This document shows, one piece after another, positions 39,029 to 39,997 of a stretch of 64,000 bases of DNA (the first letter of the stretch is position 1; the number at the start of each line of letters is the position of its first letter). Made by a program: the position numbers and the translations under genes. The stretch lies in the NCBI RefSeq assembly GCF_988243305.1, contig NZ_OZ547136.1, one strand, 5' to 3'. The notes beneath the pieces were generated by a model, which worked only from the letters and a program-made list of their open reading frames with translations, searched no databases and was not told where the DNA came from.

Positions 39029-39997
39029 ACCACTAGTTAAAACCAGTAACTCAGCAGAGTCGCAAAAAATATTAATCCATAGTGATTATTTAAACAATGA
39101 AATTGCGATTAGGATAAATAGATTTAACTTTCTCGTTCCTTTCTCTCCTTATACTAAAGAAATAATCATATCAAAATAAAAATTCACAACAGTGCAACAT
39201 TAAAAAATACAACCAACAAACAATCCTATATACAAGGCACATCTCCAGAATATAAAAGCACAGACAAACAACCTAAAAAAAACAACCCCATACATATAAA
39301 TTATTTTATAGGTAAAATAGATTATATATTCTCATAGCTACCACAAACTATACTAGCCTGAACTATATTTATTCTGCTGCAATCAATGCATACATAACAC
39401 AAATATCACTCAGGTACACTACTCAAACCACGCTGGGATTTTTCCTCAAGTTATAATCATCACCCCGAAAATCATTCGGCATTTACTCATTAAATAGTCA
39501 CCCCATAGGCCTGTACATGTTTACTCAGAAATATACATCCTTTTCTCTGTCATAAACCCTCTAATTAATCATAAATAAATACTTGTGACACCAATCTTTT
39601 TCCTTAACGGAACGAATTGTTGTGTAGAAGGAGATAATATTATGTCAAAAAAAATATCAGCCATTGCTTATAACTCATTATATGTCAACATGGGTCACTA
39701 TAACGGAAGCAGTTGAGATCACTACCAAAGCCATAAAACAAAAAAATTACTCCTAGCGATATTTATCGTCATGCCTTGAGTGGCAACATCCTACTATCGG
39801 TCTATTTCCAGTCTCCTGTGATACTTAAGAAGATACAAACTTTTAATGGAAAAATAAAATTCAGGCAGTTTGTGGGAGACCTACTTGATAAACTATGCAT
39901 GCTTGACAGGGACGGTTTTATTTATGGTCAAAATTTAAGACTCTGTACAGAAGCTAGATATATTTGTCCTGTGCAACAAATTATAGATACCCCCCTG

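What the first reader, a model, noticed from the sequence alone, without database searches (positions are those of the whole stretch)
39642..39716. Small ORF with a strong Shine-Dalgarno inside the AT-rich junction
A 24-codon ORF (MSKKISAIAYNSLYVNMGHYNGSS) is preceded by AAGGAGA at 8-nt spacing, the best ribosome-binding site in an otherwise featureless kilobase. It could be a small protein, a leader peptide, or the start of a gene truncated by the junction rearrangement.
Basis: seen in the sequence. Interest (0 to 1): 0.3.

Follow-up and report, generated by a model that had tools for sequence, protein, structure and literature searches.

The report
Frameshifted start of a decayed island gene
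The 24-codon ORF is not a small-protein gene: it is the true ribosome-binding site and start codon of a 308-residue mobile-element gene that lies after fyuA, cut short here by one extra A in an A-run, in a gene already truncated by the known deletion at the right end of the E. coli high-pathogenicity island. It is ordinary gene decay.

Summary
ATG 39642 to TGA 39716 encodes MSKKISAIAYNSLYVNMGHYNGSS, and AAGGAGA (39628-39634) is the only Shine-Dalgarno-like motif in the 1-kb, 33% GC stretch after fyuA.

The ORF is a by-product of decay. In E. coli carrying the undeleted, conjugative form of the high-pathogenicity island (HPI), the same ribosome-binding site and ATG start a 308-aa hypothetical protein, WP_000039781.1. 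That gene is followed by AlpA/excisionase and type IV secretion genes.

The window differs from that gene in three ways:
- One extra A in the run 39647-39654 (A8, not A7). This alone creates the 24-codon ORF.
- One extra A at 39731-39737 (A7, not A6).
- Loss of everything after codon 118, at about 39997, where the island gene is fused in frame to codon 74 of yeeJ. This is the published right-border deletion of the common E. coli HPI.

Among 2245 E. coli records holding this DNA, 541 match the A8 version exactly and 1180 match the A7 version exactly. Three sampled records that differ from both by base substitutions also have A7. In A7 genomes the same ATG opens a 249-252 or 308-aa ORF. The 24-aa peptide is absent from a 15-billion-protein collection.

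Interest is low.

The parts
36969..38990 (+). fyuA, the yersiniabactin receptor and last gene of the HPI core
   Evidence: 673-aa ORF. RefSeq annotates it as fyuA, WP_000784549.1, in a genome 100% identical over the 1010-nt query 38991-40000.
38991..39997 (+). AT-rich (33% GC) HPI DNA downstream of fyuA. It is island DNA, not E. coli core.
   Evidence: 98.7% identical to the ICE-type HPI of E. coli E04, apart from a roughly 208-bp deletion. Present in 2258 of 5426 complete E. coli genomes.
39628..39634 (+). Shine-Dalgarno AAGGAGA of the ancestral 308-aa gene
   Evidence: Identical in all 10 other E. coli loci that carry this region and were sampled, always upstream of the annotated start. The only SD-like motif in the junction.
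39642..39716 (+). The reported 24-codon ORF. Codons 1-4 (MSKK) are native; codons 5-24 are an out-of-frame reading of the ancestral coding sequence.
   Evidence: Alignment to the intact gene. ORF lengths from the same ATG are 24 aa with A8 and 249, 252 or 308 aa with A7.
39647..39654 (+). A8 homopolymer: first +1 frameshift (the intact gene has A7)
   Evidence: The A8 version matches exactly in 541 records and the A7 version in 1180, of 2245. A8 is linked to one SNP haplotype in 5 of 5 A8 loci, counting the window.
39655..39737 (+). Second frame piece (+1 frame), encoding native residues about 5-34 (YQPLLITHYMSTWVTITEAVEITTKAIKQK). It contains ATG 39682 (native Met14), which PGAP uses as the start in strains with A8 at the first run and A6 at the second.
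   Evidence: ORF 39664-39756 translation compared with the intact protein. PGAP starts.
39731..39737 (+). A7 homopolymer: second +1 frameshift (the intact gene has A6). Almost private to this lineage.
   Evidence: The window version matches exactly in only 8 records, against 2140 for A6.
39738..39997 (+). Third frame piece (+2 frame), encoding native residues 35-118 (ITPSDIYRHALSGNILL...QQIIDTPL)
   Evidence: ORF 39776-40393 translation compared with the intact protein.
39996..39998 (.). Right-border deletion junction. Codon 118 of the island gene is fused in frame to yeeJ codon 74, with 1 nt (G) of microhomology.
   Evidence: Homology to the ICE-type gene ends at CCCCCCTG. Homology to K-12 yeeJ starts at window 39997, which is yeeJ nt 219. 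Published as the unique fyuA-border deletion of common-type E. coli HPI (PMC2606025).
39998..40319 (+). yeeJ remnant (K-12 yeeJ nt about 220-550), lacking the signal peptide and the start of the LysM domain
   Evidence: 92.8% identity to K-12 yeeJ. PGAP calls it a pseudogene, 'inverse autotransporter beta domain-containing protein, frameshifted'.
40321..42396 (+). Distal yeeJ remnants, after an internal deletion of about 3.7 kb and a second smaller one
   Evidence: BLAST segments against K-12 yeeJ. PGAP calls it an 'Ig-like domain-containing protein' pseudogene.

Best explanation
The small ORF is the 5' stump of a pseudogene. The SD (39628-39634) and ATG (39642) are the true translation start of the first gene downstream of fyuA in intact, ICE-type high-pathogenicity islands. 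That gene encodes a 308-aa uncharacterised protein (WP_000039781.1) of the mobile-element backbone. Its N-terminal domain is predicted to be a MerR/excisionase-like winged helix. In the common E. coli HPI the gene was cut after codon 118 by the known right-border deletion and fused in frame to codon 74 of the chromosomal adhesin gene yeeJ. In this window's lineage an A7-to-A8 insertion at codons 3-5 then shifted the frame, so a ribosome starting at the old ATG reads 20 out-of-frame codons and stops at 39716. A second A6-to-A7 insertion at 39731-39737 breaks the remainder again. Shown: the homology, both frameshifts, the junction and the allele frequencies. Inferred: that the 24-aa product, if it is made at all, has no function, and that the chimeric gene is non-functional because it lacks the YeeJ signal peptide and most of both parent proteins.
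For: (1) The same SD and ATG start a 308-aa annotated CDS in the ICE-type HPI of strains E04 and ST167, directly after fyuA and before AlpA, DUF2857, TraR and Hha genes. (2) A base-by-base alignment shows only two single-A insertions in A-runs between the ATG and the junction. (3) From the same ATG, the ORF is 24 aa in the two A8 sequences measured (the window and L001). It is 249-252 aa in deletion-type A7/A6 loci and 308 aa in ICE-type loci. (4) Allele counts for the first run are 541 exact A8 and 1180 exact A7 among 2245 records; three sampled SNP-variant records are also A7 and open. For the second run the window allele is in 8 records and A6 in 2140. (5) The 308-aa family is real: 343 homologues across Enterobacterales, all about 300-316 aa, with a shared start and invariant W17, T19, E22, A23 and R42. 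A 99%-identical cluster of 1318 members comes from Y. pestis, K. pneumoniae, Salmonella and E. coli. (6) yeeJ homology starts at 39997 at yeeJ codon 73/74. (7) asnT lies at 8468-8543, as expected for the common-type HPI. (8) Published work states that all ECOR HPIs except ECOR31 carry one unique fyuA-border deletion reaching into the adjacent genome (PMC2606025), and that yeeJ next to asnT is often truncated (PMC5595812). (9) The 24-aa peptide is not among 15 billion predicted proteins, whereas the 249-aa and 236-aa chimeras are each on at least 1000 contigs. (10) RefSeq annotates this exact sequence as a frameshifted pseudogene.
Against: No expression data were available, so it cannot be excluded that the intact SD-ATG still drives synthesis of the 24-aa peptide. 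The A8 allele persists in about a quarter of HPI-positive genomes. That fits neutrality but does not prove it. The simple scan found no promoter-like site upstream of the ORF, so even ancestral transcription signals are undefined.
Confidence: 0.93

Rival explanations
1. It is a genuine, independently functional small protein of 24 residues, encoded in the fyuA-yeeJ intergenic region.
For: Strong SD at good spacing, an ATG start, and an identical ORF in 541 complete E. coli genomes.
Against: Residues 5-24 are an out-of-frame reading of a conserved 308-aa gene. The ORF is absent from at least 1180 of 2245 records with the same DNA. The peptide is absent from a 15-billion-protein collection and from the searched literature. 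The ORF length equals chance expectation in this composition.
Confidence: 0.03
2. It is a leader peptide whose translation controls the downstream ORF by attenuation or translational coupling. For example, it could allow re-initiation at ATG 39682 (native Met14), so that a protein carrying the whole winged-helix domain is still made in strains with A8 at the first run and A6 at the second.
For: The small ORF overlaps ATG 39682, which PGAP uses as the start of a 236-aa CDS in those strains. The AlphaFold model is disordered over native residues 1-14, and residues 2-16 vary across the family alignment.
Against: No terminator-like hairpin or Rfam element follows on the + strand. There is no SD before 39682. 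In this window the second frameshift stops that ORF at 39756 anyway. The arrangement arose from a single-base insertion, not from a conserved design.
Confidence: 0.03
3. The A-runs are a contingency (phase-variation) or programmed-slippage site. Changes in run length, or transcriptional slippage on A8, would switch the long ORF on and off.
For: Both frameshifts sit in homopolymeric A-runs at the 5' end of the gene, and run length differs between strains. From general knowledge, A-runs of 8 or more can give some transcriptional slippage.
Against: All five A8 loci, counting the window, share one linked SNP/indel haplotype that is distinct from the A7 loci. That points to a single inherited mutation, not recurrent switching (small sample). 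Only two lengths were seen at each run. The product being switched would be a truncated chimera with no evident function. This window would need two corrections.
Confidence: 0.03
4. The extra A's are homopolymer sequencing or assembly errors, and the gene is open in the real organism.
For: Both differences are single-base changes in homopolymer length, the classic error type. The second-run allele occurs in only 8 records.
Against: The A8 allele matches exactly in 541 independent complete genomes and is linked to its own SNP haplotype. The window is identical over 1010 nt to an independent assembly, JE86-ST05. An error at the second run would not affect the 24-codon ORF, which ends before it.
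Confidence: 0.04

Closest known systems
Right-border (fyuA-side) deletion of the common-type E. coli high-pathogenicity island (Schubert et al. 2009, PMC2606025; ICE-type progenitor in ECOR31)
   Same: The island is at asnT. Everything beyond about 1 kb after fyuA is lost: the AlpA/excisionase gene, the type IV secretion module and the right repeat. The deletion reaches into the neighbouring chromosome. The junction is shared by thousands of genomes.
   Different: Nothing differs in kind. This work only adds base-level anatomy: codon 118 of the first backbone gene is joined in frame to yeeJ codon 74, and this lineage has added two A-run frameshifts.
WP_000039781.1 family: a 308-aa hypothetical protein, the first gene after fyuA in ICE-type HPI/ICEKp-like elements of Yersinia, Klebsiella, Salmonella and E. 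coli
   Same: Identical SD and ATG, and 98-99% DNA identity over codons 1-118.
   Different: The window copy is frameshifted twice and lacks codons 119-308, so it is a pseudogene remnant and not a family member in working order.
RefSeq chimeric CDS WP_000039780.1 / WP_000039786.1 (249 aa) and WP_001323489.1 (236 aa), 'inverse autotransporter beta domain-containing protein'
   Same: Same locus, same junction and, for the 249-aa forms, the same start codon.
   Different: Those alleles have A7 or A6 runs and stay open. In the window the frame is broken, and PGAP calls the locus a frameshifted pseudogene.
YeeJ inverse autotransporter adhesin of E. coli K-12 (Martinez-Gil et al. 2017, PMC5595812)
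   Same: The DNA from 39998 onward is yeeJ (92-95% identity).
   Different: The first 73 codons (signal peptide and start of the LysM domain) are missing, as are about 3.7 kb of the β-barrel and Ig-repeat region. The small ORF itself contains no yeeJ sequence.

Membership tests
Free-standing small-protein gene (sORF) | The reading frame and peptide are conserved wherever the DNA is conserved | tested here: not met
   The ORF is present in 541 of 2245 E. coli records with this DNA. At least 1180 records have A7 and a long ORF from the same ATG.
Free-standing small-protein gene (sORF) | The peptide has been recorded or called as a gene product somewhere | tested here: not met
   The exact 24-aa sequence is not in the 15-billion-protein collection. 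No paper contains the string.
Free-standing small-protein gene (sORF) | Evidence of translation (Ribo-seq or proteomics) | not testable with these tools
   No expression data are accessible.
Leader peptide / transcription attenuator | The short ORF is followed by alternative hairpins or an intrinsic terminator upstream of the regulated gene | tested here: not met
   No + strand terminator-like site in 38900-40300. No Rfam match at E<=1 in 38900-40400.
5' end of the 308-aa HPI/ICE backbone gene (WP_000039781.1 family) | Same ribosome-binding site and start codon as annotated family members | tested here: met
   GTAGAAGGAGATAATATTATG is identical in the window and in 10 sampled loci. The ATG is the annotated start in 7 of the 10 (L002-L004 and L006-L008; sequence match).
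5' end of the 308-aa HPI/ICE backbone gene (WP_000039781.1 family) | The DNA downstream of the ATG is colinear with the family's coding sequence | tested here: met
   Identical over codons 1-118 except for two 1-nt insertions and four substitutions.
5' end of the 308-aa HPI/ICE backbone gene (WP_000039781.1 family) | Position directly downstream of the cargo (fyuA) and upstream of the AlpA / T4SS module | tested here: met
   The fyuA side is met. The AlpA side is removed here by the deletion. The same gene order holds with a different cargo in Sodalis.
5' end of the 308-aa HPI/ICE backbone gene (WP_000039781.1 family) | Intact full-length reading frame (about 300-316 aa) | tested here: not met
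   The frame breaks at 39647-39654 and 39731-39737, and codons 119-308 are deleted. It is therefore a remnant, not a functional member.
Common-type E. coli HPI with fyuA-border deletion | Island inserted at asnT | tested here: met
   tRNA-Asn at 8468-8543, preceded by tRNA-Ser(cga) as in K-12 serU-mtfA-asnT.
Common-type E. coli HPI with fyuA-border deletion | The deletion removes the right arm of the island and part of the adjacent chromosome | tested here: met
   The AlpA, DUF2857, TraR and later genes are absent (one search compared). yeeJ codons 1-73 are absent. This matches the description in PMC2606025.
Common-type E. coli HPI with fyuA-border deletion | Loss of the right-hand direct repeat (attR) | not tested
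   The repeat was not searched for. Its loss is implied by the junction lying inside two coding sequences.
Phase-variable homopolymeric tract (contingency locus) | Recurrent changes in run length that are independent of genetic background | tested here: not met
   All 5 A8 loci share one haplotype that is distinct from the 4 deletion-type A7 loci. The sample is small, so this is only indicative.
MerR / excisionase-type winged-helix DNA-binding domain (for the parent 308-aa protein) | Fold similarity of the N-terminal domain to solved MerR, Xis or AlpA DNA-binding domains | tested here: inconclusive
   [not shown]

The most novel reading that the evidence does not exclude
The retained SD-ATG may still be active. 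If so, in the roughly three quarters of HPI-positive E. coli with in-frame A-runs it would drive a cytoplasmic 249-aa chimera that keeps the complete winged-helix domain of an ICE backbone protein. That orphan DNA-binding protein could act on HPI or on other ICEs. The A8 allele, which creates the 24-codon ORF, would then be a natural knock-out, or leaky through slippage or re-initiation at Met14.
Probability: 0.05. Interest if true: 0.35.

Novelty: already known. Interest (0 to 1): 0.08.

Why it matters
The finding matters little in itself. It shows that a good Shine-Dalgarno sequence followed by a short ORF in an AT-rich junction can be the fossil of a larger gene. It also gives the base-level anatomy of the HPI right-border deletion: codon 118 of an ICE backbone gene is joined in frame to yeeJ codon 74. 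Two practical by-products follow. First, RefSeq names the resulting chimera 'inverse autotransporter beta domain-containing protein', although its first 105-118 residues come from an unrelated mobile-element gene. Second, the parent 308-aa family is a widespread, uncharacterised first gene of the excision and transfer module of HPI/ICEKp-like elements. It may encode a DNA-binding protein and could deserve study for its own sake.

Tried and rejected
- Rfam scan of 38900-40400 at E<=1 found nothing.
- The promoter/terminator scan of 38900-40300 found no promoter-like site upstream of the ORF and no + strand terminator after it. The only promoter-like hit is at 39935-39964.
- Pfam and NCBIfam gave no hit for the 308-aa parent protein. 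PHROGs gave only an insignificant RelE-like match at E=0.06.
- A full-text literature search for either peptide string returned 0 papers.
- A repeat search across the 208-bp segment that the ICE-type island has and the window lacks found no convincing terminal inverted repeats, so it does not look like an insertion element.
- Phase variation was considered and rejected on haplotype linkage.
- Sequencing error was considered and rejected for the first A-run, because 541 genomes share the allele.
- The genome contigs and metagenome scans were not used. The E. coli genome set, the protein search and one context look-up already answered the question.

Full report
**Observation.** The window has ATG at 39642 and TGA at 39714-39716, and the ORF reads MSKKISAIAYNSLYVNMGHYNGSS. 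AAGGAGA lies at 39628-39634, 7 nt before the ATG, or 8 nt counted from the AAGGAG core. It is the only Shine-Dalgarno-like pentamer in the 1007-nt, 33% GC stretch between the fyuA stop (38990) and 39997. It is also one of only two AAGGAG-plus-start-codon combinations on the + strand of the whole window. The ORF length has no weight: stop-codon density in this stretch predicts open runs of about 18 codons.

**Context.** The upstream gene, 36969-38990, is fyuA, the yersiniabactin receptor and last gene of the high-pathogenicity island (HPI) core. tRNA-Ser(cga) at 7387-7476 and tRNA-Asn at 8468-8543 reproduce the K-12 order serU-mtfA-asnT. Three more tRNA-Asn genes lie downstream. This is therefore the common E. 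coli HPI inserted at asnT. The 1010 nt after fyuA occur in 2258 of 5426 complete E. coli genomes, nearly always at 98-100% identity.

**What the SD and ATG belong to.** A few E. coli strains, such as E04 and ST167, carry the undeleted, conjugative (ICE-type) HPI.
- In them the identical sequence GTAGAAGGAGATAATATTATG starts an annotated 308-aa CDS, WP_000039781.1, a hypothetical protein.
- That CDS is followed by an AlpA-family regulator, a DUF2857 protein, a TraR/DksA protein and an Hha protein.
- A base-by-base alignment from 80 nt upstream of the ATG to the end of homology shows two single-A insertions in the window and four substitutions downstream of the ATG.
- The insertions are A8 instead of A7 at 39647-39654 and A7 instead of A6 at 39731-39737.
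- The first insertion falls in codons 3-5. After MSKK the ribosome therefore reads the conserved coding sequence one base out of register and meets TGA at 39714.
- The native sequence continues in the +1 frame as LLITHYMSTWVTITEAVEITTKAIKQK (ORF 39664-39756).
- After the second insertion it continues in the +2 frame as ...LSGNILLSVYFQSPVILKK...QQIIDTPL (ORF 39776-40393).

**The junction.** Homology to the island gene ends at CCCCCCTG, at about 39997, which is codon 118. From 39997 the DNA is K-12 yeeJ, starting at nt 219 (codon 73/74...E|LRKLNQFRTF).
- The fusion is in frame.
- The yeeJ signal peptide and the start of its LysM domain are lost.
- Further downstream yeeJ carries an internal deletion of about 3.7 kb at 40319/40321 and other damage.
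- This matches Schubert et al. 2009: every ECOR HPI except ECOR31 has one unique deletion of the fyuA border that also affects the neighbouring genome (PMC2606025).
- It also matches Martinez-Gil et al. 2017: yeeJ lies next to asnT and is often truncated (PMC5595812).

**Population evidence.** I searched 89-90-nt queries centred on each A-run and used the >=99% identity band as a count of exact matches.

| Run | Window version, exact matches | Intact version, exact matches | Records holding the region |
|---|---|---|---|
| First run, 39647-39654 | A8: 541 | A7: 1180 | 2245 |
| Second run, 39731-39737 | A7: 8 | A6: 2140 | 2245 |

- About 524 first-run records match neither version exactly. Three sampled cases (clone D i2, D8, S1-KEN-07-A) are SNP variants with A7/A6.
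- In A7/A6 genomes of the deletion type, the same ATG opens a 249-252-aa chimeric CDS that RefSeq annotates (WP_000039780.1, WP_000039786.1, WP_001773982.1).
- In A8/A6 genomes PGAP starts at the internal ATG 39682, native Met14, giving a 236-aa CDS (WP_001323489.1).
- In the genome identical to the window over the region compared, PGAP calls a frameshifted pseudogene from 39682 to 40393.
- All five A8 loci, counting the window, share a linked SNP/indel haplotype that the four deletion-type A7 loci lack. That indicates one inherited mutation rather than recurrent run-length switching (small sample).
- The 24-aa peptide is not among about 15 billion predicted proteins, whereas the 249-aa and 236-aa chimeras each occur on at least 1000 contigs.
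- No paper in the searchable library contains either peptide string.

**The parent gene.** The 308-aa protein has 343 detectable homologues across Enterobacterales, including Yersinia, Klebsiella, Salmonella, Citrobacter, Dickeya, Pectobacterium, Sodalis and Brenneria.
- Nearly all are 300-316 aa and all are called hypothetical. None has a Pfam, NCBIfam or meaningful PHROGs hit.
- Their N-termini align, with a variable stretch at residues 2-16 followed by invariant W17, T19, E22, A23 and R42.
- A 99%-identical cluster of 1318 sequences comes from Y. pestis, K. pneumoniae, Salmonella and E. coli.
- In Sodalis sp. RH16 a 65%-identical homologue lies between a quite different cargo cluster and the same module: AlpA, DUF2857, TraR, SLT, TrbC and VirB4. 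This makes it the first gene of the element's excision and transfer backbone, not a yersiniabactin gene.
- An AlphaFold model built on a 43-sequence alignment has mean pLDDT 76.6, above 90 for residues 20-130.
- A DNA-binding role is therefore a reasonable inference, not a demonstration.

**Mechanism and rivals.** The best-supported account (confidence about 0.93) is passive decay, in three steps:
1. A real gene start has been preserved.
2. The gene body was truncated by the island's right-border deletion.
3. It was then frameshifted by slippage in an A-run.

The 24-codon ORF is the accidental result of the third step. The peptide may or may not be synthesised, and nothing suggests a function. 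The rivals each get a few percent:
- A true small protein is contradicted by the lack of frame conservation and by the out-of-frame origin of 20 of its 24 residues.
- A leader peptide lacks any attenuator, and the arrangement arose from a one-base insertion.
- Phase variation or programmed slippage is contradicted by haplotype linkage and by the crippled product.
- Sequencing error is excluded for the first run, because 541 genomes share the allele.

**Verdict.** The feature is already covered by published descriptions of the HPI right border and by RefSeq pseudogene annotation. Interest is low (0.08).

Noticed in passing
window ~39275-39290 (vs L002 3297-3503): The common-type island lacks about 208 bp that the ICE-type HPI has between fyuA and the 308-aa gene. 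The missing piece is bounded by imperfect A-rich direct repeats (CTAAAAAAACAACCC / CACAAAAAAAACCACCCC), so it looks like a deletion between short repeats. No terminal inverted repeats were found.
   Followed up: partly
window 40319-40321, ~40765-40794 and 42396-42461: Besides losing its first 73 codons, yeeJ has an internal deletion of about 3.7 kb (K-12 yeeJ nt 550 to 4244), a second loss of about 280 bp within the Ig-repeat region, and a replaced or deleted 3' end. The same pseudogene structure is annotated in every deletion-type locus sampled.
   Followed up: partly
[not shown]
   Followed up: partly
window 39682-40393; L003 9043-9792; L011 1283-1993: RefSeq names the chimeric CDS 'inverse autotransporter beta domain-containing protein', although its first 105-118 residues come from the unrelated ICE gene and it has no signal peptide. 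In A8 strains PGAP moves the start to the internal Met14 codon. This is an annotation artefact that has spread to thousands of genomes.
   Followed up: yes
summary; hits H27, H28, H35, H37, H58: Some recent clinical E. coli (for example E04, Ec42, ST167, isolateA and GZ04-0083) have a 'hypothetical protein' annotated under the match. For E04 and ST167 this was confirmed as the undeleted ICE-type HPI with the intact 308-aa gene. Four matches to the region lie on plasmids. Neither set was counted or examined.
   Followed up: no
window 40094-40113, - strand: The only terminator-like hairpin in the region lies on the minus strand, inside the yeeJ remnant. It is probably a chance match.
   Followed up: no
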